Source: a virus | IMG/VR virus record: IMGVR_UViG_3300045988_044618 | Span: 1-39,864 of that record | DNA length: 39,864 nt | Direction: 5' to 3' (one strand) | Shown: piece by piece, positions 1 to 39,864 of the stretch | Position numbering within the stretch: position 1 is the stretch's first letter | Layout: each line of letters opens with the position of its first letter | Made by a program: the position numbers and the translations under genes | Notes under the pieces: generated by a model | Databases searched by the model: none | The model's input: only the letters and a program-made list of their open reading frames with translations | What the model was told of the DNA's origin: nothing

Positions 1-200
1 GAGACCTGCGCATTGCCGAAGACCTGCGCATCGCCGGAGACCCACGCATTGCCGTCGTGGGAGAGGTTGTCTTCCTTCTCAATAAATCCGCCAAGTTCTC
101 CCTTCTCGACGTCGCAAAAAGCGACGAGAGCCTTAACGCGGAACAGCTTCTTCCCAAAAACGTTCGTTACAAATTCGGCGGTCAGTTCAAATTTCTTCAT
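1..200 (-). CDS. Hexapeptide (GNAxVx) repeat protein, 5' part; continues at 39401..39864 across the circular junction (202 aa total)
   Basis: ATG at 200 follows AAAGGAGG with a 9-nt spacer. Translation is MKKFELTAEFVTNVFGKKLFRVKALVAFCDVEKGELGGFIEKEDNLSHDGNAWVSGDAQVFGNAQVS. The frame is continuous with 39401..39864 once the 55-nt overlap is removed (145+464 nt = 203 codons). It is absent from the ORF track because it runs off the window edge. Confidence 0.8.
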   Translation of the reverse strand, partial: MKKFELTAEFVTNVFGKKLFRVKALVAFCDVEKGELGGFIEKEDNLSHDGNAWVSGDAQVFGNAQV

Positions 201-11642: not shown

Positions 11643-13520
11643 TCAGGTTTGCGATGCTACTGCATCTTCCAAATCGGTAATCCGCTTAATGGGGTCTGCG
11701 CGTCCCGTCACAGTCACGCTGTCGGCATCGGTTAGCACGGTGTTCACGCCGGATAAGGCTTTAACAGATGCGTTCCCGGTTGCCGAGAATGATGTAGGAG
11801 TTGCCACCTTATAACATACATTCACACCGTCTGGGAATTTTGCAGCGTATGCTTCGCCCGAATCCAAACCTTCTACTCTCAAATAGACATCTCCTGATGC
11901 TGACACTCCTAAACCAATCGTTCCGCCGTTGATATCGTATGCTGGCTTTGTTGGGAGGCAATCACACACGCCGTCAAATGCAACCCTATTAGATGGTGGA
12001 AGCTGTATACCATTCAGAATATTGCTAGATGCATATCCAAGCATCGCTGATATGCTTTTGTTATAATTCAGATTTTCCATCCGAATATTGACCTTGTTAT
12101 ATTGTGATTCTCCTACTCCGCTCACCGCGTCCACCTCACCACCGTACACGGTTTCGGGCAGGGTCAGGGTGTTGGTCTGGCCTACTTGCACTGTGTTATT
12201 CAGCAGAATTGGCCGAATGTTTTCGGGCGATGGGTTGCCCGTTCCCCCTTGAACAGGTTTCTCCGAAAAAAAGACACTATTCGTATCTGGCACAACAAAT
12301 AGCTTTTTCAACTTATAAGCAACTTGCACAGGCGTGCCAGCGGCGTACTGGGCGGCAAGGTAGGCATTCCACTCGTCTATTGTTCCTCCCGCATATGTAT
12401 CATTATAAATTCTGAAATAGTGGTGCTCTTGTGCTTCAACTGATATTCCGTTTTGGCGTGCGAATGTTTCGTCTGCTGTACGTGTCGGATATTGATTGCA
12501 TACAATATCACCCTTAATATGGGACATCGTGGGAGTGGCTATTTCAGGCACTTGAAATTTGAAACCAACTTTGCTAGGACTGTCGGTTGTGTCAGTGCCC
12601 CAATTTTCTGTTCCGTTCAGCGTCAGCATTTTCCACGACCGCAATCCATCCGCCAGATTAACTGTCACGATGTTTCTTCCCTTGATGGGACGAATGTTTT
12701 CGGGGCTGGGTGTTCCGCTTCCCTCCTGCACGGGTTCCCACTTCGCTTTTACCCCCAGCGGGTATCCCGCCACAGGGTAGCACACAACAGGGTTTCCGCT
12801 TTCTTCCAGCGGCGGGCAAAGCATATCCACGATGTTCTTGCTGCTCCACGGATTTTCACCAATGGTGCTGTCATCTGGGTAGGCACGCTGCATCTGGTTT
12901 TTCAGCGTGCCAATGTCTTTTATAGCCTGACTGTAGTCAGAAGGCATCCCGTCAACGAGGGTCTGTGCCTTGTCCGCACTGTTCTTGGCATTGTCGGCGA
13001 ATCCCTTGGCTTGGTCTCTAACGGCCTCAGTCTGGGCCTTAATCTGCTCTGTGGCAGCCTTAACAGCTGTCACATCTTCCAAGAGCTGCTGAATAGTCTT
13101 GTACTCGTCGCTGCTGATAATAGCATTTTCAGGTAGAGGGTTTCTGTCGAAGTGCAGCCAGATGGGCGCACTGCCTGCAATGCCACCGCCGACAGTGATT
13201 TCAACAATCGGGTAATAGTCACCCCATCCAGTAGACATTTGCGGAGTGACAGCAAAATATGCGATTGTGCGCTCTGCATTCACGCCGAGCGCAGGATTGT
13301 ACACATAATAGCCGTCGCGCTTGTCCATGCGGATGTTTACATCTGCGTCAGACGGGACTTTATACTCTGTGCCGCCTTTTTTGAGCGAAACGCAAAGAAC
13401 AGGAATGGTCTGGTCATACTGAACCAGATTCACGGCCTTTTTGTCGGGCCTGCTGTCGAAGTCTACGGTACACGATTTGAGATGTGCTGTAGACAACGGT
13501 TCATAAATAGTTGCTGCCAT
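11643..13520 (-). CDS. Tail fibre / receptor-binding protein (625 aa from ATG 13520)
   Basis: AAGGGGG, 6 nt, then ATG 13520 (the track start at 13583 overlaps the upstream gene). It has a central coiled coil. The motif G-x-G-x-PSPENIRPI occurs twice (about 12684-12722 and 12203-12250). Confidence 0.75.
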   Translation of the reverse strand: MAATIYEPLSTAHLKSCTVDFDSRPDKKAVNLVQYDQTIPVLCVSLKKGGTEYKVPSDADVNIRMDKRDGYYVYNPALGVNAERTIAYFAVTPQMSTGWGDYYPIVEITVGGGIAGSAPIWLHFDRNPLPENAIISSDEYKTIQQLLEDVTAVKAATEQIKAQTEAVRDQAKGFADNAKNSADKAQTLVDGMPSDYSQAIKDIGTLKNQMQRAYPDDSTIGENPWSSKNIVDMLCPPLEESGNPVVCYPVAGYPLGVKAKWEPVQEGSGTPSPENIRPIKGRNIVTVNLADGLRSWKMLTLNGTENWGTDTTDSPSKVGFKFQVPEIATPTMSHIKGDIVCNQYPTRTADETFARQNGISVEAQEHHYFRIYNDTYAGGTIDEWNAYLAAQYAAGTPVQVAYKLKKLFVVPDTNSVFFSEKPVQGGTGNPSPENIRPILLNNTVQVGQTNTLTLPETVYGGEVDAVSGVGESQYNKVNIRMENLNYNKSISAMLGYASSNILNGIQLPPSNRVAFDGVCDCLPTKPAYDINGGTIGLGVSASGDVYLRVEGLDSGEAYAAKFPDGVNVCYKVATPTSFSATGNASVKALSGVNTVLTDADSVTVTGRADPIKRITDLEDAVASQT

Positions 13521-13531
13521 TTTACGCCCCC

Positions 13532-15019
13532 TTAATAATAAGCAAGGATAAATTGTATGCTTGCACTTGTTCCCGCCGCGCATTGCGCCCAGTATTCGCT
13601 TCCGCTGCTTATGCCAGCGGCTTGTAAACTGTTTTCACCGGAGCCAGGGCTTCCGGCGTACTGAATGCCCACGAGCGTGCCGCCCGTAAAGGAGAATCCG
13701 TTTCGGCCTCCTCCACAAGTTTTCCATACTGTAGAGGTTTTTATTCCCGTCGCGCTCACTTTACCGCCACCTGCGTGGTAGCCGCCCGGGACTGTGACAA
13801 CGCCGCCCGGGTTGATTGTCTTTCCCCAGTCGCCCTGATTTGGCATTGAGCCGCCAACGTTCACGCCCGCTTCAGCGCTCGTGAAACTGTTGCCCGCCAG
13901 AACTGCGGACGCAGGAGCAGAGCCGACAGGGATTGCAACCTCTGGATAACCTGCGCCAGCGTCGTCCTTATAAGCGCCCTTGGGAATACGCGCATTGAGG
14001 TTTCCGCTACCGACGCTGTAGGAGACAGGTGAGACGGTCTTGGGCTGTATAGGCAAATTACCAGTCTTGATTGTCTTATCTTTGGCGTAATACTTCTTAC
14101 CGTCCAGCACATCAGCAGGCTCGGCGGTAGCCAGTGCTAGCTTTGCATTGCCAAGACCACCGCCGCCATTAAAATTTAGCTGTGAGCCGTCATATGTAAA
14201 CAGTACCCATCTGTCTTTGACAATCGTGTCCGCGTCAACGGCCTGCGCGCCCACATACGCAGGAGCAGCCTTGCCATTGATGCTGAACGTGTCTCCGCTG
14301 GAGAACGTTGCAGGGGCCTTGAAGCGGCCCACGGCGCCAGAGCCAGTCAGTGCAAACGTGTTGCCTGTTTTGGCGCAGCTGTACACCTGTACAGTAGCAG
14401 ATGTGCCAAGCCCCGCAGGGTCGTAGACGTCTTTCAGCATGGTAGCGCTGCCCGCCTTAATAGCTGCAATCTCGTCCGCCATCGACTTGATAAGAGCTTC
14501 ATATTGCTTTTGCAGCGTGCCAGTCGGCAGCCTGGTCACGCCGTCACGCATAAGGCCGCAGACACTTTCATCAAGCATCGTGTTGGTGACGTCTGCGGCG
14601 CTTACTGTAAGGCTGCCAGCAGGGACAGACACAGTGTATAGACCAAGCTCATAAAGCAGCTCTGAGCGCGTTAGAGTAGGCGCTACAGGACTTGAAGCGG
14701 GTGTGCCGGTCTTTACCTCAAACGTGCTTTCGTTAGTGCTCTTAGTAAAGCGAAGCACGATTCTGTCAATGCGGGGGAGCGCACCGTCCGCAATGGGGAT
14801 TGCGACAGATACATTTTCAGTGCTAACAACGCTTTTCCCTTTAAACGTGCCGTTGTTAATCCAGGCCATGCCTGTCCCGATGGTGATTTTTCGTGCCTCT
14901 GTAACGGTTGCGGGGAACGATTCGGCAGCATATACACCGCTTGTGCGGGTGCAGAGGTAGGTCTCTGCATCTTCTGCCGTGTACTCCACATCGTTCAGAG
15001 GATATGTGATAATTGCCAT
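13532..15019 (-). CDS. Tail fibre / host-specificity structural protein (495 aa)
   Basis: The SD is AAGAGGT. It is a large Gly/Ser/Thr/Ala-rich beta-type protein sitting between the tail-tip and RBP genes. Confidence 0.65.
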   Translation of the reverse strand: MAIITYPLNDVEYTAEDAETYLCTRTSGVYAAESFPATVTEARKITIGTGMAWINNGTFKGKSVVSTENVSVAIPIADGALPRIDRIVLRFTKSTNESTFEVKTGTPASSPVAPTLTRSELLYELGLYTVSVPAGSLTVSAADVTNTMLDESVCGLMRDGVTRLPTGTLQKQYEALIKSMADEIAAIKAGSATMLKDVYDPAGLGTSATVQVYSCAKTGNTFALTGSGAVGRFKAPATFSSGDTFSINGKAAPAYVGAQAVDADTIVKDRWVLFTYDGSQLNFNGGGGLGNAKLALATAEPADVLDGKKYYAKDKTIKTGNLPIQPKTVSPVSYSVGSGNLNARIPKGAYKDDAGAGYPEVAIPVGSAPASAVLAGNSFTSAEAGVNVGGSMPNQGDWGKTINPGGVVTVPGGYHAGGGKVSATGIKTSTVWKTCGGGRNGFSFTGGTLVGIQYAGSPGSGENSLQAAGISSGSEYWAQCAAGTSASIQFILAYY

Positions 15020-24240: not shown

Positions 24241-24639
24241 TTATTTGCCTTTCAGCTCTTGTTCGATAATTCTGTTATACTGCGCGGCATGGTCTGCCAC
24301 TGCGGGTTTGATGTACGGTTTGGCACGTTGCCCGTGCGTAAGGTGCCAATTGCCTTTTTCGTCTTGATACGTCCACGGCGTTTGTCTGCCGCCGGGATAA
24401 TAAACGCCTGTGCCGCACTCCACATATACGCCGTATTCGCTATTTGTGCCAATATATGCAGCTTTTTCGCCGTCGCTGACAGTATGTGTAATGCTGTTGC
24501 GTAGGTTGCCTGTGTCCACGGGGCATAGCTTTTTAGCGTACCCCTCACCCACCAGCCCGCACTTTTCCAACGCCCGCTGGCAAGCGGATTCCAGCGCTTC
24601 TAATACCTCATCGCTGTGGTCTTCAAGTCGTATCTGCAT
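24241..24639 (-). CDS. HK97 gp10-family phage protein (132 aa)
   Basis: The motif CPVDTGNLRNSITH ... YVECGTG is characteristic of the HK97 gp10 family. The start overlaps the end of the MuF-like gene. Confidence 0.75.
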   Translation of the reverse strand: MQIRLEDHSDEVLEALESACQRALEKCGLVGEGYAKKLCPVDTGNLRNSITHTVSDGEKAAYIGTNSEYGVYVECGTGVYYPGGRQTPWTYQDEKGNWHLTHGQRAKPYIKPAVADHAAQYNRIIEQELKGK

Positions 24640-25630
24640 TGCGTTTCCACCCCGCCCACTCTGTAAAGGTCATATCTTCCACAAGCACAGATTTCCCCGT
24701 TTTTGGGTCTTTGGCACGTCTGCTACCGCTGCTTGTATCCTCGCCGTCAACCTCCGCAATCTGCGTACAGCGGCAGTTATACACAAGATAGCCCGGCGCG
24801 GAAGTATCGCCCGGGTACATAATCTCGTACCCGTCCACCTTGAACGGCTTGTCTACATCGACCGTCTGCCCATCAAGCATTGCGTGTGCGTGGCGTGTTC
24901 TGCCGTCCAGCGTTGCCAGCCAGCGCTTTTTAAGCTTGATGCCCATATCCTGTGCGGCGCGGTAAGTATCTAGCCGCCCCGCGTTCTGCGCCCCTGTGAC
25001 CGCCGTTCTCGCCGTTCTTATGGCGCTTGTGCGGTTCATATCCTGCATACGGCTTTGTAAGTCGTTGGCTATTTTCGGTATGCTTTTGCCTTGCAGGATG
25101 GAGCTTGTCACGCTGGCGGTAATTTGCTGCTTGCCGTATTTCAGGTCTATGCCGCGCTGCAATGCCCGCTTTGGCGGGTAGTACGGCATCAAATCAGGTT
25201 GTTCCACAATCAGACGTTTCACTGTCTGCTCATCCCACAGCGTAAAATCTGCTTTGTCGGAAACCTGCTCGATTTTGTAAGCTGCATAATTGCGGTTCAG
25301 GCTGTAAATGTCCGGAGTGGCGTCGTTGACGTATGCCACAGCCGTTGCATTGGCATCAGTGTATCTTTCTGCCACTTTATCGCGCAGGGCTTCAAAACGC
25401 TTTCCGCGCCCTATCTGCGCAAGCCGCCACTGCTTGTATTGCTGCTCTGTGATTTCGCCTGCATCGAGCTTTTCTTTCATGGCCGCATCGCGCTTCTCAA
25501 ACTGCTCAAAATAGGCTTTCACCGTGTCGGTCAATTCGTCGGCAGCTTCTTTGTACAGCTTTGCAATGCGCTGTTCCATCTCGGCGAGCTGTTCATCCGT
25601 AAGTTTGTGGGCATAATCAGGTTTTCTCAT
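24623..25630 (-). CDS. Minor head protein, SPP1 gp7 / Mu F-like head morphogenesis protein (335 aa)
   Basis: The motif is RWLATLDGRTRHAHAMLDGQTV ... YPGDTSAPGYLVYNCRCT. Confidence 0.85.
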   Translation of the reverse strand: MRKPDYAHKLTDEQLAEMEQRIAKLYKEAADELTDTVKAYFEQFEKRDAAMKEKLDAGEITEQQYKQWRLAQIGRGKRFEALRDKVAERYTDANATAVAYVNDATPDIYSLNRNYAAYKIEQVSDKADFTLWDEQTVKRLIVEQPDLMPYYPPKRALQRGIDLKYGKQQITASVTSSILQGKSIPKIANDLQSRMQDMNRTSAIRTARTAVTGAQNAGRLDTYRAAQDMGIKLKKRWLATLDGRTRHAHAMLDGQTVDVDKPFKVDGYEIMYPGDTSAPGYLVYNCRCTQIAEVDGEDTSSGSRRAKDPKTGKSVLVEDMTFTEWAGWKRNADTT

Positions 25631-26016
25631 TTTCTTCTTTTAGTACCGCCTACGAACCCCATAATTTCTTTGCTTAGTTTCGCTTGGCTGCTTTTGTACG
25701 TTGAAGTGGTGATTTCTCTTTTTGTAGCTTCACCAAAAGAATTCACAAATGTTTTTCCCTTTGTTTTTTCAGCAGTCACATTTCTGCTTGCGGTCACTAT
25801 TTTGTTTGTTATCGAACGCTTTTTTGATTCAAGCGCCTGTTTTTTTCTCTGTACATCGTAATATCCGCTTGGCATATTCCACGCAGGATTTTTTGATGCG
25901 TAATCCGCCAACCTTTTATTCAGTTTGTCAATTTGGGAATTTAGGCTTTTTTCTTTTTCTTTTAAGGCGCCTATACTCGCACTACCGCTGCCGCTTCCAG
26001 AACCTCTACCGCCCAT
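25627..26016 (-). CDS. Hypothetical protein (129 aa from ATG 26016) starting MGGRGSGSG
   Basis: AAGGAG, 8 nt, then ATG 26016 (the track's GTG at 26022 is too close to the SD). The first 27 coding nt are identical to those of 26648..27097. Its stop overlaps the MuF start. Confidence 0.65.
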   Translation of the reverse strand: MGGRGSGSGSGSASIGALKEKEKSLNSQIDKLNKRLADYASKNPAWNMPSGYYDVQRKKQALESKKRSITNKIVTASRNVTAEKTKGKTFVNSFGEATKREITTSTYKSSQAKLSKEIMGFVGGTKRRK

Positions 26017-26034
26017 TCTCACATCTCCTTCTTA
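25991..26034 (-). repeat. 44-bp direct repeat, copy 1 (SD + start + MGGRGSGS codons)
   Basis: On the minus strand: TAAGAAGGAGATGTGAGAATGGGCGGTAGAGGTTCTGGAAGCGG. It is identical to 27072..27115. Confidence 0.95.
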
Positions 26035-26632
26035 CTTGCTTATAATATGGTTGAATCCTCGTGACGTTCCAATCAAATTCTTCAGGGCATTTGCCATACC
26101 ACAAAATCTCACTGGGTTCAAGCCTTGCCAATGCCGCCCGAACGCCTTTTTCAAACAGCGCTTGATTCTGCTTGTTTTGCTGCGTTCCAACGCTGGATAT
26201 TGCCACAATCGAATGTTTCGGTTCACCATCAAAACACCATTCATAGCTTTTCTCGTCGCTCCAACACAAGGTTGGCACAACGTGAATCCCGCATTGCTGC
26301 CAGTATGCCGCCATCCAGTGCTTGCGATAGTGATTGTATATCTGCATAGCAAGCGGCATATCTGTATACATTGAGAAATCAGGCGCACACACAGCACCAA
26401 ATTTTCGCAGCAGCGGAATGTACTTGTCCGGCTGATTCCACACCCTTTGGAATTGATAATCATCCACGAAAAAGTGAACGCCTTTTGTTGCGCAGTCCGT
26501 ACAGGTTTTAGCAAAGTTGAACGGAATCCATTCCAGATGCCGCACATCAATGTACTCCGGCTGTATAATCGGTGTGTCATATACGCCCGCACCAATAAAG
26601 CGGGCTTTGTCGAGATTTTCAAAGTTCAGCAT
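26006..26632 (-). CDS. DUF4417-like protein (208 aa)
   Basis: VHFFVDDYQFQRVWNQPDKYIPLL ... APDFSMYTDMPLAMQIYNHYRKHWMAAYWQ matches my memory of DUF4417 (unverified). There is no SD. The last 10 codons are encoded by the 44-bp repeat. Confidence 0.6.
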   Translation of the reverse strand: MLNFENLDKARFIGAGVYDTPIIQPEYIDVRHLEWIPFNFAKTCTDCATKGVHFFVDDYQFQRVWNQPDKYIPLLRKFGAVCAPDFSMYTDMPLAMQIYNHYRKHWMAAYWQQCGIHVVPTLCWSDEKSYEWCFDGEPKHSIVAISSVGTQQNKQNQALFEKGVRAALARLEPSEILWYGKCPEEFDWNVTRIQPYYKQVRRRCENGR

Positions 26633-26647
26633 AATATATACCCAGTA

Positions 26648-27097
26648 TTACTTGATTCCGGCTTCGCGCATTTTCTTTTCAATGGTCTTTCTCTTCATAC
26701 CGACGCGAACGCCCTTAACTCCGGCTGCCTTTGCCTGCGCAATCAGCGCATTATAGGATTTTTGTCCAGATTCAAATCTGCTTTGTCGCGCCAATTCTGA
26801 CGCGCTTTTTTGAGCAGTGAATTTTTTTCCGGTGGCATCCTCCCAAGTGGCGCTATACTGCGATGCCGCCCGCCGTGTGCTGTAAAATTCCTGAGCCTTT
26901 TTGTCTGTAATCCACTCGGAAGGTTTTCCATCGGGGGCAAGCTGCGTTTTCGGAACCCATACAATGCGACTTTTTGTTTGCTCCAAATCATAATCTTCTA
27001 CGTTTATGCGCAACTGTACCGCTCGCTCTGTTTCGCCAAAATACGAAATTCCTGTTTTGTCTTTACTTCTACCGCTTCCAGAACCTCTACCGCCCAT
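26648..27097 (-). CDS. Hypothetical protein (149 aa from ATG 27097) starting MGGRGSGSG
   Basis: It has the same SD, start and first 9 codons as 25627..26016, then diverges (RSKDKTGISYFGETERAVQLRINVEDY...). Confidence 0.65.
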   Translation of the reverse strand: MGGRGSGSGRSKDKTGISYFGETERAVQLRINVEDYDLEQTKSRIVWVPKTQLAPDGKPSEWITDKKAQEFYSTRRAASQYSATWEDATGKKFTAQKSASELARQSRFESGQKSYNALIAQAKAAGVKGVRVGMKRKTIEKKMREAGIK

Positions 27098-27115
27098 TCT
27101 CACATCTCCTTCTTA
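27072..27115 (-). repeat. 44-bp direct repeat, copy 2
   Basis: It is identical to 25991..26034 and begins exactly at the portal stop codon TAA (27115-27113). Confidence 0.95.
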
Positions 27116-28432
27116 ATTCCCAGTAGTGCGGTTTAGCATTTCCGCCGCCTTTCGCTTCATCAATTCCTCGTACTGATCAGCATCGCCGTTAATGGTCAGC
27201 AGCTTTTTGGTAATGTACTCATCATCGTAATACTCCGCGCCCAGCATCACGGTCTGCGCTTCTTCCTGCTTGTTGATAATCTGGTTGCGCGTGTATGTCG
27301 GCTCGTCATCAAGCCCAGCAACCGCCAAAATGCCCTTGATGCAGCGTGAAACGCAGCTTTCAAACTTATCCGTTTTCAAATCAAGCGGAACATAGCTTGC
27401 CTTGATAGCCGTTGCCGTCTGGTTTCCCGCGCTCACGGCAGATGCGTCAAACGCCTGGAAATCCGTGTACAGCTTTTTGGTCAGCATGTCAATGGTTGCT
27501 TGCGTGCCCTGAAACGGCGCTTCAATGCTTTGCGGTGTGGCCTTCGCGCCCTCTTCGCCGTCAGCATGGGCGACGTGGGTGGTTTTAAGCCGCTCAATAA
27601 ACCTTGTATCGTCCTGCTCATCCATGCCGCCGCAGTTTGTAAGCACCCAATAAATGAGATTGCCCTCATCCACATTGTTTACCATGTTGCTGCTGGCAAG
27701 GTCGAGCGCGTCAACGGTGTTTTTCCTGCCGCAAAGTTCGCTTCTTGCTTGTTCGCCGTTTTTCAGCGGGATAATGGGAAATCCGGGATAATTCTCGCCG
27801 TCATAAATTTCTGTGCCGTCAATCTCCGAGTACCGAACTTTCAACTTGTACGGCAATTTCCCGTTTAAACTGCGTACTTCACCGTTGCGCGGTTTAATGT
27901 AATCAGTGTAACCGTCCATCTCGTACAGCGTTGCCCGCAGCGGTTTGTCCGGGTCAATCTGCCAGAACCGGATTCCGGCTTTTAGTGCGCCATCTTCTTC
28001 ATCGTATAACGGCACAAACTGCTCCGGCGCGAACACCTGAATATGGTCAAGATTCCAGAATACGAAAGACTGCCCACCAATCAACGCATGGCGGGCAGCA
28101 TCCATAATATCTTCATCAAACGTGGCGCCAAGCGCCTTTTTTGTGGCATCCTTGTTAAACGCAACGCCGTTGCCTAACAGGTAAGAAACTTCCTGATCTA
28201 CAACAAATCCAAAAAACTTGCTAGCAATCTTGTGGTTTGCTGTGTACATATCGGGATGCGCTTTTCCCTCAAGATCGTACACCATTTTTTCATAGCGGTT
28301 GATTGTGGGATTTTCGCCCCAATAGTAAAGCTTTGCGTCCAGCATGTCCCGCGTCTTTTTCTGGCCTTTAAAATCGTTTATGGTGTCAAACACAAACCCC
28401 ATGCGGGAACGTTCATCTTCACCGACCGCCAC
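27113..28432 (-). CDS. Portal protein, SPP1 gp6-like (439 aa; start uncertain, GTG 28432 or ATG 28402)
   Basis: Position (after TerL) and size fit. The motif is YYWGENPTINRYEKMVYDLEGK ... HKIASKFFGFVVDQEVSYLLGNGV. Confidence 0.85.
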   Translation of the reverse strand: MAVGEDERSRMGFVFDTINDFKGQKKTRDMLDAKLYYWGENPTINRYEKMVYDLEGKAHPDMYTANHKIASKFFGFVVDQEVSYLLGNGVAFNKDATKKALGATFDEDIMDAARHALIGGQSFVFWNLDHIQVFAPEQFVPLYDEEDGALKAGIRFWQIDPDKPLRATLYEMDGYTDYIKPRNGEVRSLNGKLPYKLKVRYSEIDGTEIYDGENYPGFPIIPLKNGEQARSELCGRKNTVDALDLASSNMVNNVDEGNLIYWVLTNCGGMDEQDDTRFIERLKTTHVAHADGEEGAKATPQSIEAPFQGTQATIDMLTKKLYTDFQAFDASAVSAGNQTATAIKASYVPLDLKTDKFESCVSRCIKGILAVAGLDDEPTYTRNQIINKQEEAQTVMLGAEYYDDEYITKKLLTINGDADQYEELMKRKAAEMLNRTTGN

Positions 28433-28459: not shown

Positions 28460-29740
28460 TCACCGCCCTCTGTCAAAAATGCTCTTGTACTTTGTATCTG
28501 CCGCATCTCCGGCTTTGCCCGCCGTGCTTTCCATCGCATAACGCACTGCATCAATGTGATGATTGTTCAAATCCGGGTAGCCTTCCAGCACTTCCCCTGT
28601 CTTGCCGTCCCGCTCATACTCGTACTCACTAAACTCTTTCGCCGTGTCCGGGCAACGTTCTGGGTCAATGACAATAGCTTCCAGCATTTGCAGCCATTTT
28701 GTGCCATAGCGAACCGATTTCGGCCCCTTGCGGGCCGGGAACGTCTTTATGCCGTACTTGTTATAGTCCGCAATGGATTTTGGCTCGGCGCTATCCGCGC
28801 AGACTTTATCCTCACGCGTCAGCCCTTTATCCAAAAGCAGTTGCGCAGTATCCCTATTGCTGGTTCTGCGCCGTGTCTGCTCATCAAATATGTACAGCGT
28901 GCGCCGCGCTGCGTCATAGTGCATCGCATTGTATGCCCAAGGGTCAGGGTACCAGCCCCAGTCAACCCCTCGCTTAATGCGGTCAAAGCTGGCAATCTGT
29001 TCATCGGTGATTTTCTCAATCCGCAGATTCTCAAATACTGCCGTGCCGTTGCCGACAACCTCGCCAAGATACTCATGCCGGTATGCTGTTTCGTTTGTGC
29101 GCTCCAAGTATTCAGCATCGGCCAGAAACCGCTCGCCGAGCCATTCTGCGGGCGTTGTTTTGTAGGTGGAATGATGTACTAGCTTTCCCTTGCGGACTTT
29201 CAGAGCGTACCCGTTTGCCCAGTTCCGCGCCATTGCTGGCGGGTTGAAGCTCTTGAACGTGATGAACCAGTCACCGCCGCGCAAGCAGGACTGCTCCACA
29301 TTTCGGATTTGCTCTTCACCGTCAAACTGGTCAAGCTCTTCAAACCACGCAATCCCGATATAGCCGAACGGCATCTTGATTGACTTGACCTTTCCGGGGT
29401 CGTCCATACCGAAAAAAAGCACCTTCTGCCCTGTCGGCAAATAGGTGCATTCCATCGGGCTGACAGTGCATCGGAAATAATCGTGTAACCCCAGCTCGTT
29501 TATCGCCCATACAATCTGGGCATAAACGCTTGTGCGTAATGTATTTGCCACTCGGCGGAACACTGCCGCATGACATTGCGGATGCTTGAGCAGCTGCAAA
29601 ATCAGCTCTATGCTGATATAGCTTGATTTTGTACTGCCGCGCCCGCCTTTGGCGACAAGCTCTTTTACATTGCCTTCCTTGATTTCACGGTGGACTTTGG
29701 CGAAACAAGGGGAAACAATCCCGGACATCTTACAAGTCAT
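28460..29740 (-). CDS. terL: Terminase large subunit (426 aa)
   Basis: It has a Walker A-like motif VAKGGRGSTKSS and a C-terminal nuclease-type region. The start overlaps the TerS stop. Confidence 0.9.
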   Translation of the reverse strand: MTCKMSGIVSPCFAKVHREIKEGNVKELVAKGGRGSTKSSYISIELILQLLKHPQCHAAVFRRVANTLRTSVYAQIVWAINELGLHDYFRCTVSPMECTYLPTGQKVLFFGMDDPGKVKSIKMPFGYIGIAWFEELDQFDGEEQIRNVEQSCLRGGDWFITFKSFNPPAMARNWANGYALKVRKGKLVHHSTYKTTPAEWLGERFLADAEYLERTNETAYRHEYLGEVVGNGTAVFENLRIEKITDEQIASFDRIKRGVDWGWYPDPWAYNAMHYDAARRTLYIFDEQTRRRTSNRDTAQLLLDKGLTREDKVCADSAEPKSIADYNKYGIKTFPARKGPKSVRYGTKWLQMLEAIVIDPERCPDTAKEFSEYEYERDGKTGEVLEGYPDLNNHHIDAVRYAMESTAGKAGDAADTKYKSIFDRGR

Positions 29741-30741: not shown

Positions 30742-30815
30742 TGGCGCGGGTGGAAGGTCTTGACCCCTCATCTTGCGGTTTTGGATACCGCAGTTCTGCA
30801 TTGAACTACACCCGC
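30742..30815 (-). tRNA. tRNA-Trp (anticodon CCA), 74 nt with encoded CCA
   Basis: It has a perfect 7-bp acceptor stem GCGGGTG/CACCCGC, discriminator G and anticodon arm GCGGT-ATCCAAA-ACCGC. The D-loop (AATGCA) lacks GG and the T-loop is GTCAAGA. Confidence 0.75.
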
Positions 30816-39404: not shown

Positions 39405-39864
39405 TCGGACACCTCATGATTTTCTTTTTCATCAGAAAAATGCAGCTCCATCAAGTCGGCAATCGCGAGGTACTCTTTAGCGTATTTGCTGCCGCCGTGG
39501 GTTTTCTTGACGATTTCGCGGAACTGCGCTAAATCACCATAAAAGCAACCGCACTGTATGCGGATAATTTTATCCTTGCAGCGGAAAAATGTGGTCGCGC
39601 GGAAATAACGGCCAAAGCCTGTAACGACGGCAAAGTCTGCATCGCCGTAGACCCACGCATTGCCGGAGACCTGCGCATTGCCGTAGACCCACGCATTGCC
39701 GGAGACCTGCGCATTGCCGTAGACCCGCGCATTGCCGTAGACCCACGCATTGCCGGAGACCTGCGCATTGCCGGAGACCCACGCATCGCCGTAGACCCAC
39801 GCATCGCCGGAGACCTGCGCATTGCCGAAGACCTGCGCATCGCCGGAGACCCACGCATTGCCGT
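39401..39864 (-). CDS. Hexapeptide (GNAxVx) repeat protein, 3' part (repeats + C-terminal domain); the 5' part is at 1..200
   Basis: The frame ending at TGA 39403-39401 reads ...GNAWVYGNAQVSGNAWVYGDADFAVVTGFGRYFRATTFFRCKDKIIRIQCGCFYGDLAQFREIVKKTHGGSKYAKEYLAIADLMELHFSDEKENHEVSE. The two track ORFs here (MRGSPAMRRS..., MGLRRCAGLR...) are the wrong frames of the same repeat. Confidence 0.8.
   Translation of the reverse strand, partial: GNAWVSGDAQVFGNAQVSGDAWVYGDAWVSGNAQVSGNAWVYGNARVYGNAQVSGNAWVYGNAQVSGNAWVYGDADFAVVTGFGRYFRATTFFRCKDKIIRIQCGCFYGDLAQFREIVKKTHGGSKYAKEYLAIADLMELHFSDEKENHEVSE
39647..39862 (-). repeat. Twelve tandem 18-bp units encoding G-[ND]-A-x-V-x hexapeptides
   Basis: The units are GGCAATGCGTGGGTCTAC / GGCAATGCGCAGGTCTCC and variants. 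The unit containing GAAGAC (GDAQVF) occurs only once per genome copy. Confidence 0.95.

What the first reader, a model, noticed from the sequence alone, without database searches (positions are those of the whole stretch)
25991..27115. 44-bp direct repeats bracket a DUF4417-like cassette inserted between portal and MuF genes
An exact 44-nt sequence occurs twice, 1,081 bp apart (27115-27072 and 26034-25991). On the minus strand it reads TAAGAAGGAGATGTGAGAATGGGCGGTAGAGGTTCTGGAAGCGG. Each copy supplies the SD, the ATG and the first codons (MGGRGSGS) of an otherwise unrelated protein (149 aa and 129 aa). Between the copies lie the body of the 149-aa gene and a DUF4417-like gene. That gene has no SD of its own, and its last 10 codons (VRRRCENGR-stop) read into the repeat in another frame. 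This looks like the scar of a recombinational cassette insertion or duplication in the head-morphogenesis region. The shared N-terminal leader could also be functional, for example as a capsid-targeting signal; that is speculation. DUF4417 has no known function.
Basis: partly seen in the sequence, partly recalled or inferred. Interest (0 to 1): 0.65.

Follow-up and report, generated by a model that had tools for sequence, protein, structure and literature searches.

The report
Shared MGGRG leader beside DUF4417 gene
The 44-base repeat is two copies of the start of a large, apparently undescribed family of phage proteins, many of them toxins, that all begin Met-Gly-Gly-Arg-Gly and sit next to a DUF4417 gene in phages from mycobacteriophage D29 to gut Clostridia phages; this points to a common tagging or delivery system.

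Summary
An exact 44-nt direct repeat (25991-26034 and 27072-27115, minus strand) supplies the RBS, ATG and first nine codons (MGGRGSGSG) of two unrelated genes that flank a DUF4417 gene between portal and MuF.

It is not simply an insertion scar.
- DUF4417 followed by an overlapping MGGRG-start gene is a conserved two-gene module. It appears in 70 of 78 Clostridia prophage loci found through DUF4417, in 92 of 95 viral-contig loci found through the leader DNA, and in 8 of 10 cultured phages sampled, including D29, Che12 and Streptococcus A1.
- The leader M-G-G-R-G-(S/A/G)-x-S-G fronts at least 34 unrelated protein bodies. These include ADP-ribosyltransferase, Tox-PL1 and DUF6883 domains.
- Codon usage in the leader varies, so selection acts on the peptide.
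- Four relatives place a Prp-type pro-peptide (..NLQFF) directly before GGRG, which suggests a free Gly N-terminus matters.

The exact nucleotide identity is a recent event specific to this lineage. A relative with the same gene order (L099) encodes the same leader with different bases. In relatives the 44-mer occurs only at the DUF4417 3' junction.

Most likely role (inferred, not shown): an N-terminal tag for DUF4417-dependent handling of variable cargo, probably loading into the virion. I found no description of this in the literature I searched.

The parts
27072..27115 (-). Upstream (derived, ectopic) copy of the 44-nt repeat. It contains the portal stop TAA, the AAGGAG RBS, and the ATG plus the first 26 nt of orfA. 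Its first 18 nt are a fragment of DUF4417 3' coding sequence that is non-coding here.
   Evidence: Exact match. In relatives this 44-mer occurs only at the DUF4417/next-gene junction. L099 has a different sequence at this position.
25991..26034 (-). Downstream (native) copy of the 44-nt repeat: the last 10 codons of DUF4417 in one frame, and the RBS, ATG and first codons of orfB in another.
   Evidence: The same junction, with 0-3 mismatches, is found in about 27 related loci.
26648..27097 (-). orfA, 149 aa. It has an MGGRGSGSG leader, a beta-rich core and C-terminal helices. It belongs to a family of at least 31 proteins that conserve the MGGRG(G/S)SSG N-terminus.
   Evidence: AF2 model with pLDDT 84.6 and the leader (residues 2-13) disordered. 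No Pfam, PHROG or PDB match. Weak Rho_N-like hits in 2 of 15 members only.
27071..27097 (-). Leader codons 1-9 of orfA (M G G R G S G S G).
26633..26647 (-). Spacer between orfA and DUF4417 (TACTGGGTATATATT), with no SD. It is homologous to the spacer in L099.
26006..26632 (-). DUF4417 gene, 208 aa. It is the conserved partner gene of MGGRG-leader genes. The predicted fold is alpha/beta with conserved acidic residues.
   Evidence: Pfam 2.9e-57. PHROG 8680 and the C-terminal half of PHROG 940. AF2 pLDDT 88.3. No significant PDB neighbour. Weak TGT/DpdA-like neighbours in BFVD.
26006..26016 (-). 11-nt overlap ATGGGCGGTAG: the orfB start codon and the DUF4417 stop codon, giving translational coupling.
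   Evidence: The same 11-nt overlap occurs in 31 loci. It also gives the C-terminal signature [N/H/D/Y]GR* in 77 of 120 DUF4417 homologs.
25627..26016 (-). orfB, 129 aa. It has an MGGRGSGSG leader, a variable coiled-coil and an invariant C-terminal FVNSFGEATKRxIT motif. It is the largest body family found next to DUF4417.
25990..26016 (-). Leader codons 1-9 of orfB (M G G R G S G S G).
27113..28432 (-). Portal gene (SPP1 type), the upstream boundary of the variable slot. Its 3' end is shortened relative to relatives (..NRTTGN* versus ..DRTT(E/D)GE(G/E)*).
24623..25630 (-). Short MuF (335 aa, no C-terminal extension), the downstream boundary of the slot.
   Evidence: Relatives L001, L004 and L092 have long MuF proteins with C-terminal extensions: HEYGH in L001/L004 (my reading of the sequence) and DUF6883 in L092.

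Best explanation
The two 44-nt copies are the translation starts of two members of a large polymorphic family of phage proteins. What defines the family is a short N-terminal leader, M-G-G-R-G-(S/A/G)-x-S-G, and a position next to a DUF4417 gene, usually overlapping its 3' end.

**Shown**
1. DUF4417 and MGGRG-leader genes are associated whichever partner is used for the search. The association holds in phages of Clostridia, Streptococcus, Mycobacterium and Gordonia.
2. The leader fronts dozens of unrelated bodies, including recognised toxin and effector domains, often as 2-4 tandem genes.
3. The leader is conserved as a peptide, not as DNA.
4. The exact 44-nt identity in this window is unique to this lineage. 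The upstream copy is the derived one and carries 18 nt of DUF4417 3' coding sequence into a non-coding position.

**Inferred**
- The upstream copy arose by recent gene conversion or recombination. The ancestor was either like L099 (same gene order, different orfA 5' end) or received orfA from a donor with DUF4417-orfA order. One crossover lay inside the shared leader and one junction, at GGAAT|TAAG, was illegitimate.
- Functionally, the leader exposes a free, flexible Gly-Gly-Arg-Gly N-terminus. This happens after Met removal, or after Prp cleavage in the variants that carry ..NLQFF before GGRG.
- That N-terminus tags variable cargo for a step that depends on DUF4417. The most likely step is incorporation into the capsid, so that the proteins are delivered with the DNA. 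This would parallel MuF-fused toxins and T4 internal proteins.
- orfA and orfB would be two such cargo or accessory proteins.
For: **Association, searched from the DUF4417 side**
- 77 of 120 DUF4417 homologs end in [N/H/D/Y]GR*. That is the out-of-frame reading of xATGGGNGGTAG.
- 70 of 78 usable prophage loci fetched with a DUF4417 profile have 1-3 MGGRG ORFs within 3.5 kb.

**Association, searched from the leader side**
- 123 of 125 matches to the leader DNA pattern in IMG/VR are ORFs of at least 50 aa.
- 92 of the 95 matches with enough flank have a DUF4417 gene on the same strand within 3.5 kb.

**Cultured phages**
- 8 of 10 sampled have the pair, including D29, Che12, Gail, Equemioh13, Gordonia LastResort, Streptococcus A1 and Javan83.

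**Polymorphic bodies**
- 34 BLAST clusters among 143 unique proteins.
- Pfam hits: ADPrib_exo_Tox (4e-32 and 2.8e-9), Gln_amidase/Tox-PL1 (1.2e-16) and DUF6883 (1.1e-14). DUF6883 is also fused to MuF in L092.

**Selection on the peptide**
- Families collected by body similarity keep the leader while the bodies fall to 30-45% identity.
- Each Gly position uses three or four synonymous codons, and Arg uses six.
- Positions 6, 8 and 9, which the search pattern did not require, are S/A/G in 131 of 134, S in 108 of 134 and G in 95 of 134.
- 61 of 63 within-locus leader pairs share no long nucleotide run that includes the RBS.

**Free N-terminus**
- L033, L122, L126 and L142 have M..(I/V)NLQF(F/L) directly before GGRG. 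This matches the Prp motif MLxx(D/N)LQ(F/L)F'A (PMC9405229).
- The leader is disordered in the AF2 model.

**Origin of the repeat**.

**Published precedents for virion loading**
- MuF-fused toxins and nearby stand-alone toxins are predicted to be head-packaged (PMC3482391, PMC5576092, PMC9503650).
Against: - There is no experimental evidence that any MGGRG protein is in a virion or that DUF4417 binds or acts on the leader. My searches found no virion proteomics for these genes.
- The DUF4417 fold gives no clear function: the best PDB match has E = 0.05 and TM below 0.45. The BFVD neighbours look like nucleic-acid transglycosylases rather than adaptors, and DUF4417 is often fused to ParB-like domains. 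Together these hint at a role on DNA.
- In some phages the module lies away from portal and MuF: upstream of the terminase genes in L096 and Streptococcus A1, and at the left genome end in Cluster-A-type mycobacteriophages.
- orfA and orfB themselves have no recognisable toxin domain.
- The direction of the recombination event, intragenomic conversion versus import with orfA, is not resolved.
- About 10% of DUF4417 loci lack an MGGRG ORF. Some use another shared leader, such as MAKGESGF in L034/L035.
Confidence: 0.6

Rival explanations
1. Simple scar. The repeat is only the footprint of a cassette insertion or duplication between portal and MuF, and the shared MGGRGSGS N-terminus is an accident of that duplication with no function.
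For: - The 44-nt identity is exact and unique to this lineage.
- The portal-MuF interval is a variable slot. It is empty in Chenonceau and Dulem virus 33 and holds a 76-aa ORF in L001.
Against: - The leader peptide is conserved in hundreds of genes with different codons and unrelated bodies.
- L099 has the same gene order without the nucleotide repeat.
- DUF4417 + leader gene is the ancestral unit, not the inserted piece.
Confidence: 0.04
2. Assembly artefact. The second copy, or the gene order, results from a chimeric metagenome assembly across a shared 44-mer.
For: - The window is a metagenome-type contig with a 55-nt terminal overlap.
- Related strains with DUF4417-orfA and DUF4417-orfB orders co-exist in gut samples.
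Against: - Mis-joining at the 44-mer could only swap what follows DUF4417. It could not create the novel portal-end/leader junction or the orfA-end/DUF4417 junction.
- The same order is seen in L099, from another sample and with different leader DNA.
- Five contigs of 20-50 kb carry the identical orfA with the same neighbours.
- 44 nt is shorter than the apparent k of 55.
Confidence: 0.02
3. RNA or DNA-level element. The conserved sequence acts as nucleic acid, for example as a translational operator, a coupling signal or a recombination site, and the peptide is incidental.
For: - The DUF4417 stop overlaps the leader start (ATGGGCGGTAG) in many loci, so translational coupling is real.
- Within the window's own lineage the junction 44-mer is highly conserved as DNA, partly because it is dual-coding.
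- Shared leader DNA evidently served as a recombination substrate here.
Against: - Between lineages the leader codons and upstream regions differ freely while the peptide is kept.
- Second and third tandem copies have their own RBS and no overlap with DUF4417.
- There is no stable RNA structure (z = -0.2 to +0.45) and no Rfam match.
Confidence: 0.05
4. The leader is functional, but not for capsid loading. Three alternatives are possible.
- DUF4417 is an enzyme that modifies or conjugates the free N-terminal glycine.
- DUF4417 is a general chaperone or neutraliser that holds toxic cargo through the leader.
- The leader is an export or degradation signal used in the infected cell.
For: - DUF4417 has the conservation pattern of an enzyme: invariant Asp, His, Arg and Lys at the C-terminal ends of strands.
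- Its structural neighbours are TGT/DpdA-like, weakly.
- ParB fusions suggest a role on nucleic acid.
- Variants with a Prp pro-peptide suggest that the free alpha-amino Gly is what matters.
- In some phages the module is not adjacent to head genes.
Against: - Nothing here discriminates these alternatives from capsid loading, and they are not mutually exclusive with it.
- The bodies overlap in domain content with MuF-fused, head-associated toxins. Most modules sit at the start of, or inside, the packaging and head operon.
- A single protein that neutralises many catalytic domains through a 9-aa tag is hard to picture.
Confidence: 0.25

Closest known systems
T4 internal proteins with a capsid targeting sequence (CTS)
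   Same: - A short conserved N-terminal leader is the only feature shared by a diverse, fast-evolving set of small proteins.
- The proteins are encoded in a variable locus, packaged in the head and injected (PMC3012670).
- The leader is modular and the bodies are swappable.
   Different: - The leader sequence is different.
- From my own knowledge, the T4 CTS is removed by the gp21 prohead protease and targets the scaffolding core. Here the leader appears to need a free N-terminus and is coupled to a dedicated DUF4417 gene.
- The hosts are siphophages of Gram-positive bacteria, not T-even myophages.
- Packaging has not been shown here.
MuF polymorphic toxins of temperate phages (Zhang et al. 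2012, PMC3482391; Jamet et al. 2017, PMC5576092)
   Same: - The genomic neighbourhood is the same (terminase-portal-MuF).
- The repertoire of variable domains is the same: ADP-ribosyltransferase, Tox-PL1, metallopeptidase-like, DUF6883.
- Small downstream genes are annotated as immunity genes in mycobacteriophage Gail.
- Both have a polymorphic C-terminus behind a constant N-terminus.
   Different: - The constant part is a 9-residue leader plus a separate DUF4417 gene, not a fused MuF domain of about 300 aa.
- The window's MuF is a short form without a toxin domain.
- orfA and orfB have no MuF domain and no recognised toxin domain.
Adaptor/chaperone-effector gene pairs of type VI secretion (DUF4123, DUF1795/Eag, DUF2169 upstream of effectors with conserved N-terminal motifs). 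This comparison rests on my own knowledge and was not tested here.
   Same: A conserved accessory gene lies immediately upstream of polymorphic effectors that share only an N-terminal motif. Tandem arrays of effectors also occur.
   Different: The machinery is unrelated, there is no sequence or fold relationship, and an interaction between DUF4417 and the leader has not been shown.
Prp-processed N-termini (ribosomal protein L27; phage 80alpha capsid and scaffold proteins)
   Same: Four relatives carry M..(I/V)NLQF(F/L) directly before GGRG. This matches the Prp recognition motif (PMC9405229, PMC5744158). Use of that motif by phage proteins has precedent.
   Different: The window's orfA and orfB have no pro-peptide: GGRG follows the initiator Met directly. 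The P1' residue is Gly rather than Ala or Ser. Cleavage has not been tested.
Short conserved boundary sequences at module junctions in mosaic phage genomes. This comparison rests on my own knowledge of lambdoid phage mosaicism.
   Same: A short sequence shared by non-homologous neighbouring genes acts as a patch for homologous recombination and cassette exchange. That is what seems to have produced the exact 44-mer here.
   Different: Here the shared patch is maintained by selection on an encoded peptide, and at the DUF4417 junction by dual coding. It is not maintained as a recombination site as such.

Membership tests
Pfam PF14386 (DUF4417) | Significant match to the family profile over its full length. 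| tested here: met
   Window 26006-26632: E = 2.9e-57, profile positions 5-180 of 183. Also PHROG 8680, E = 8e-69.
MGGRG-leader / DUF4417-associated proteins (defined in this report) | N-terminus M-G-G-R-G-(S/A/G)-x-S-G. | tested here: met
   orfA and orfB both start MGGRGSGSG. Consensus from 134 distinct leaders.
MGGRG-leader / DUF4417-associated proteins (defined in this report) | Encoded directly beside a DUF4417 gene on the same strand, typically overlapping its stop codon. | tested here: met
   orfB overlaps the DUF4417 stop by 11 nt. orfA ends 15 nt before the DUF4417 start.
MuF polymorphic toxins | N-terminal Phage_Mu_F domain fused to a C-terminal toxin domain. | tested here: not met
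   orfA and orfB have no Pfam or PHROG hit. The window MuF (335 aa) has the MuF domain only and no extension.
Polymorphic toxin systems (general) | Constant N-terminal trafficking part with variable C-terminal toxin domains. | tested here: met
   Met at family level: 34 body clusters, with ART, Tox-PL1 and DUF6883 hits. For the window's own orfA and orfB no toxin domain is detectable.
Polymorphic toxin systems (general) | Cognate immunity gene immediately downstream of the toxin. | not tested
   The only evidence is a deposited annotation of 'immunity protein' after the MGGRG gene of phage Gail. In the window, orfB is followed directly by MuF.
T4-type CTS internal proteins | T4-like CTS sequence removed by a gp21-type prohead protease, and presence in the head. 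| not testable with these tools
   The leader sequence is unrelated to the T4 CTS as I recall it. Processing and packaging need experiments.
Prp substrates | N-terminal (D/N)LQ(F/L)F motif preceding the mature N-terminus. | tested here: not met
   Absent from the window's orfA and orfB. Present in the DUF4417-adjacent proteins of L033, L122, L126 and L142.
TGT/DpdA-like transglycosylases (considered for DUF4417) | Significant fold or sequence similarity to TGT, including the catalytic Asp pair and the Zn site. | tested here: inconclusive
   BFVD neighbours annotated as queuine tRNA-ribosyltransferase at E = 1.7e-3 to 5e-2 and TM 0.46-0.56. No TGT among the top PDB hits. No sequence hit. At 208 aa the protein is too short for a full barrel.

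The most novel reading that the evidence does not exclude
DUF4417 is a small enzyme that acts on nucleic acid and is distantly similar to TGT/DpdA. It uses the free alpha-amino group of the N-terminal glycine of GGRG-tagged proteins to tether them, perhaps covalently, to the phage DNA. Any protein carrying the 9-residue tag would then be packaged with the genome and injected with it.

This one idea would account for several observations together:
- the apparent need for an exposed Gly N-terminus, produced by Met removal or Prp cleavage;
- the long flexible Gly/Ser linkers after the tag;
- the ParB-DUF4417 fusions;
- the position of the module at the packaging end of the genome;
- the polymorphic toxin bodies.
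Probability: 0.07. Interest if true: 0.95.

Novelty: new variant of a known kind. Interest (0 to 1): 0.72.

Why it matters
- **A function for DUF4417.** It would give a first functional context to DUF4417, a domain with no known function. The domain is present as gene 1 or 2 in hundreds of sequenced mycobacteriophages, including D29, and in very many gut prophages.
- **A second route for phage effectors.** It would define another way, besides fusion to MuF, in which temperate phages organise polymorphic toxins and effectors. It adds dozens of new candidate effector families, including the orfA and orfB families seen here.
- **A possible engineering tag.** If the 9-residue leader is enough for handling or loading, it would be a compact tag for putting foreign proteins into siphophage particles, as the T4 CTS is used.
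- **Annotation fixes.** Several GenBank records place the start of the downstream gene too late and miss the leader (Che12 gp2, LastResort gp2, Javan83_0031).
- **Testable in culture.** The hypothesis can be tested directly in cultured, genetically tractable phages such as D29, L5-type phages and Streptococcus A25/A1.

Tried and rejected
- tblastn of orfA and orfB against 50,697 phage records found no match at E = 1e-3. This is probably due to low-complexity masking and divergence. The family was reached instead through the protein database and through DUF4417.
- Pfam and PHROG scans of orfA and orfB found nothing significant. There were only coiled-coil noise for orfB and a weak Rho_N hit in 2 of 15 orfA relatives.
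- The orfA AF2 model has no PDB neighbour.
- The DUF4417 model has no significant PDB neighbour, and neither the sequence nor the profile matches the PDB.
- RNA element: no structure above shuffled controls and no Rfam hit.
- A 7-bp TACTGGG duplication lies at both ends of the orfA insert. I considered it as a target-site duplication. I did not rely on it, because L099 shares the same spacer with a different sequence there (TTCGGA).
- I considered reading the 1,081-bp unit as a mobile cassette and rejected it. It carries no recombinase or nuclease, and comparison with relatives shows that DUF4417-orfB is resident.
- Literature searches for MGGRG, DUF4417, mycobacteriophage VIP2 or polymorphic toxin, and virion mass spectrometry found no description of the leader or of its link to DUF4417. 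The library holds open-access papers only.
Full report
**1.

The 44-mer occurs exactly twice, at 25991-26034 and 27072-27115 on the minus strand. No match is expected by chance. All genes in this region are on the minus strand, in this order:
- large terminase, 28460-29740
- SPP1-type portal, 27113-28432
- orfA, 149 aa, 26648-27097
- DUF4417, 208 aa, 26006-26632 (E = 2.9e-57)
- orfB, 129 aa, 25627-26016
- short MuF, 24623-25630
- HK97 gp10-like protein, scaffold protein and capsid protein

Each repeat copy provides AAGGAG, the ATG and the codons for MGGRGSGSG. orfA and orfB are otherwise unrelated. The DUF4417 reading frame runs through the downstream copy and stops 11 nt after the orfB ATG. 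The TAA at the start of the upstream copy is the portal stop codon.

**2. The portal-MuF interval is a variable slot, but the repeat does not bracket "the insert".**

- In Flavonifractor phage Chenonceau and Dulem virus 33 the portal gene abuts MuF.
- In MT838701 (L001, 80-86% nucleotide identity) a 76-aa ORF lies between them. Homology to the window is lost across 27141-25634.
- The closest backbone I found, L006 (about 91% identity), has portal-DUF4417-orfB-MuF. The window differs from it by about 490 extra bp, consisting of the leader plus orfA, between portal and DUF4417.
- That extra segment is 89% identical to the orfA of L091 and L092, where orfA lies downstream of DUF4417 (portal-DUF4417-orfA-MuF).
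- More distant orfA homologs also sit immediately downstream of a DUF4417 gene. In L096 and L097 this is far from portal and MuF.

**3. A relative has the same gene order without the repeat.**

- L099 (orfB 98% identical) has portal-orfA-DUF4417-orfB-MuF. Its orfA body is about 94% identical to the window's, and the spacer between orfA and DUF4417 is homologous.
- Its orfA nevertheless starts GTG GGA GGT CGA GGC TCT GGA AGC GGA behind a different RBS. The peptide is the same and the DNA is different.
- That alternative RBS and leader DNA also precedes an unrelated 169-aa MGGRG gene in L030 and L031.
- Across all fetched loci the 44-mer (0-3 mismatches) occurs once per locus, always at the DUF4417/next-gene junction. 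Only the window and its 100%-identical twin L098 have a second copy.
- Among 63 within-locus pairs of leader genes, only the window and L098 pairs share a long exact run that includes the upstream RBS.

I conclude that the upstream copy (27072-27115) is derived. There are two possible routes. Either the 5' end of orfA was overwritten by a DUF4417-junction-type sequence, or it was imported together with orfA from a donor in which orfA followed DUF4417. In both cases one junction was illegitimate (GGAAT|TAAG, which also shortened the portal C-terminus) and one crossover lay inside the shared leader. The direction of the event is inferred, not proven. An assembly artefact is unlikely, because the novel junctions cannot arise from mis-joining at the 44-mer and the order recurs in independent contigs.

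**4. The leader defines a large family coupled to DUF4417.**

*Families collected by body similarity.* These keep the N-terminus while the bodies diverge.
- orfA family: MGGRG(G/S)SSG is kept down to about 45% identity.
- orfB family: M1, G2, G3, R4, G5 and S8 are invariant down to about 34% identity. It also has an invariant C-terminal FVNSFGEATKRxIT motif.

*Search from the DUF4417 side.*
- 77 of the 120 best DUF4417 homologs end in [N/H/D/Y]GR*, which is the out-of-frame reading of xATGGGNGGTAG. Many others read ..NGRKR.., the same leader with other codons.
- Of 78 usable prophage loci fetched from species-representative genomes with a DUF4417 profile, 70 have 1-3 MGGRG ORFs within 3.5 kb. 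Most are immediately downstream and some immediately upstream. The hosts are mainly Oscillospiraceae, Ruminococcaceae and Lachnospiraceae.

*Search from the leader side.*
- A DNA pattern for SD + ATG GGN GGN AGA GGN found 125 sites in the first 120 IMG/VR loci returned.
- 123 of these are ORFs of at least 50 aa.
- Of the 95 with at least 1.2 kb of upstream sequence, 92 have DUF4417 on the same strand within 3.5 kb.

*Cultured phages.* DUF4417 is present in 495 records: 385 Mycobacterium, 57 Streptococcus and 30 Gordonia. In 8 of 10 sampled, an MGGRG ORF starts at the DUF4417 3' end: D29, Che12, Equemioh13, Gail, Rumpelstiltskin, Gordonia LastResort, Streptococcus A1 and Javan83. In Che12, LastResort and Javan83 the deposited start lies downstream of the leader.

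**5. Selection acts on the peptide, and the bodies are polymorphic.**

- Among 134 distinct leader DNAs, each Gly position uses three or four synonymous codons and Arg uses six.
- Positions 6, 8 and 9 were not required by the search pattern. They are S/A/G in 131 of 134, S in 108 of 134 and G in 95 of 134.
- The bodies of 143 unique proteins fall into 34 BLAST clusters.
- Representative bodies match these Pfam families:
  - ADPrib_exo_Tox, 4e-32 and 2.8e-9
  - Gln_amidase/Tox-PL1, 1.2e-16
  - DUF6883, 1.1e-14; the same domain is fused to the C-terminus of MuF in L092
  - weakly, a Zn-metallopeptidase family
- By my reading of the sequences, other bodies carry HExxH or JAB-like HxHP..S..D motifs.
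- In mycobacteriophages the leader is followed by a long Gly-rich linker and a toxin-like body. In Gail the next gene is annotated as an immunity protein.
- Up to four leader genes occur in tandem, as in L096.
- A minority of lineages use another shared leader. In L034 and L035, three tandem genes after DUF4417 start MAKGESGF.

**6. A free Gly N-terminus seems to matter.**

- Gly at position 2 favours removal of the initiator Met (established knowledge).
- In L033, L122, L126 and L142 the DUF4417-adjacent protein begins M..(I/V)NLQF(F/L) directly followed by GGRG.
- This is the recognition motif of the Firmicute Prp protease, MLxx(D/N)LQ(F/L)F'A. Prp processes L27 and the phage 80alpha capsid and scaffold proteins (PMC9405229, PMC5744158). 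Cleavage there would expose the same GGRG N-terminus. This is an inference.
- In the AF2 model of orfA (pLDDT 84.6) residues 2-13 are disordered.

**7. What DUF4417 is remains open.**

- The AF2 model is confident (pLDDT 88.3). It is an alpha/beta domain with conserved Asp, His, Arg and Lys after the strands.
- It has no significant PDB neighbour: the best match has E = 0.05, and the hits are generic beta/alpha barrels.
- In the viral structure library, the best hits outside its own family are phage proteins annotated as queuine tRNA-ribosyltransferase (TGT/DpdA-like). The scores are borderline: E = 1.7e-3 to 5e-2 and TM 0.46-0.56.
- In phages DUF4417 is often fused to ParB-CTPase-fold domains (bioRxiv 10.1101/2025.10.10.680097; SpGS-1).
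- I treat the TGT likeness as a lead only.

**8. Mechanism**

The shown and inferred steps are listed under best explanation. The strongest precedents are two.
- MuF-fused polymorphic toxins, and stand-alone toxins in head-gene neighbourhoods, are predicted to be packaged and injected (PMC3482391, PMC5576092, PMC9503650).
- T4 internal proteins are diverse and share only a capsid targeting sequence (PMC3012670).

On that basis I propose that the GGRG leader tags variable cargo for a DUF4417-dependent step, most likely virion loading. orfA and orfB would be two cargo or accessory proteins of unknown activity. For the RNA-level rival, I found no RNA structure or Rfam family that explains the repeat.

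**9. Novelty and scoring**

- In the open-access library, "MGGRG" appears in no phage paper. DUF4417 appears in four papers, none of which assigns it a function or mentions the neighbouring leader genes.
- The repeat itself is an ordinary recombination footprint.
- What it exposes is a deeply conserved pairing of DUF4417 with a leader-tagged protein family, which includes toxin domains and reaches from gut Clostridia phages to D29. It appears to be undescribed and can be tested directly in cultured phages.
- I rate it a new variant of a known kind (phage head-associated polymorphic effectors and leader-tagged internal proteins), with interest 0.72.

Noticed in passing
window 1-55 and 39810-39864; tandem array 39603-39864 continuing into 1-73: The two ends of the window are identical over 55 nt, so the contig is a complete circular or permuted genome of about 39.8 kb. 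The junction lies inside an array of about 16 copies of an 18-nt unit (about GAGACCTGCGCATTGCCG), which probably encodes a hexapeptide repeat.
   Followed up: no
window 30742-30815 (-): A tRNA-Trp (anticodon CCA) is encoded upstream of the terminase genes.
   Followed up: no
L001 2010-3785; L004 7287-9026; L092 3958-5466: Close relatives carry long MuF proteins (502-591 aa) with C-terminal extensions. L001 and L004 have an HEYGH metallopeptidase-like motif and L092 has DUF6883. These look like MuF polymorphic toxins, whereas the window's MuF is the short 335-aa form.
   Followed up: partly
L034 4653-6375; L035 5534-6375: A different shared leader, MAKGESGF(x)K, starts two or three tandem genes downstream of DUF4417, including an orfB-like gene. 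P0088 and P0098 start MAKRGSGG. Leader variants therefore exist.
   Followed up: no
L183 (Che12) about 1061-1900; L306 (Gordonia LastResort) 1098-1985; L308 (Javan83) 2394-2804: The deposited CDS starts of the genes after DUF4417 lie downstream of the MGGRG start, and the Che12 gp1 annotation is correspondingly over-extended. These look like mis-annotated starts in GenBank.
   Followed up: partly
L307 (Streptococcus phage SpGS-1) 1288-3109: A ParB-DUF4417 fusion protein is followed by a 248-aa protein in which GGGRGANF is internal, after a 63-residue N-terminal region ending ..KINFTL. The body has a JAB-like HNHP..S..D motif. This may be another processed pro-form.
   Followed up: no
P0094 (177 aa); P0107 (158 aa); L030 6007-6324: Recombinant or truncated orfB variants exist. 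P0094 is an in-frame fusion of the DUF4417 N-terminus to the orfB C-terminus. P0107 joins a PF06378 domain to the orfB C-terminal motif. L030 has an orfB that lacks the leader.
   Followed up: no
window 26633-26647 compared with L006 5370-5390: In relatives the DUF4417 ATG lies 4 nt after the portal stop, with a GAGGGA SD-like sequence inside the portal 3' end. In the window DUF4417 follows orfA after a 15-nt AT-rich spacer with no SD, so its translation probably depends on coupling or re-initiation.
   Followed up: no
window 12208-12259 and 12685-12736: An imperfect 52-nt direct repeat (71% identity) lies inside the 646-aa ORF at 11643-13583 (-). It is probably an internal repeat of a tail protein.
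   Followed up: no
L096 5001-6568: Four MGGRG-leader genes lie in tandem directly after DUF4417, next to a DNA methyltransferase and upstream of the terminase. This shows that the module can sit outside the portal-MuF slot.
   Followed up: partly
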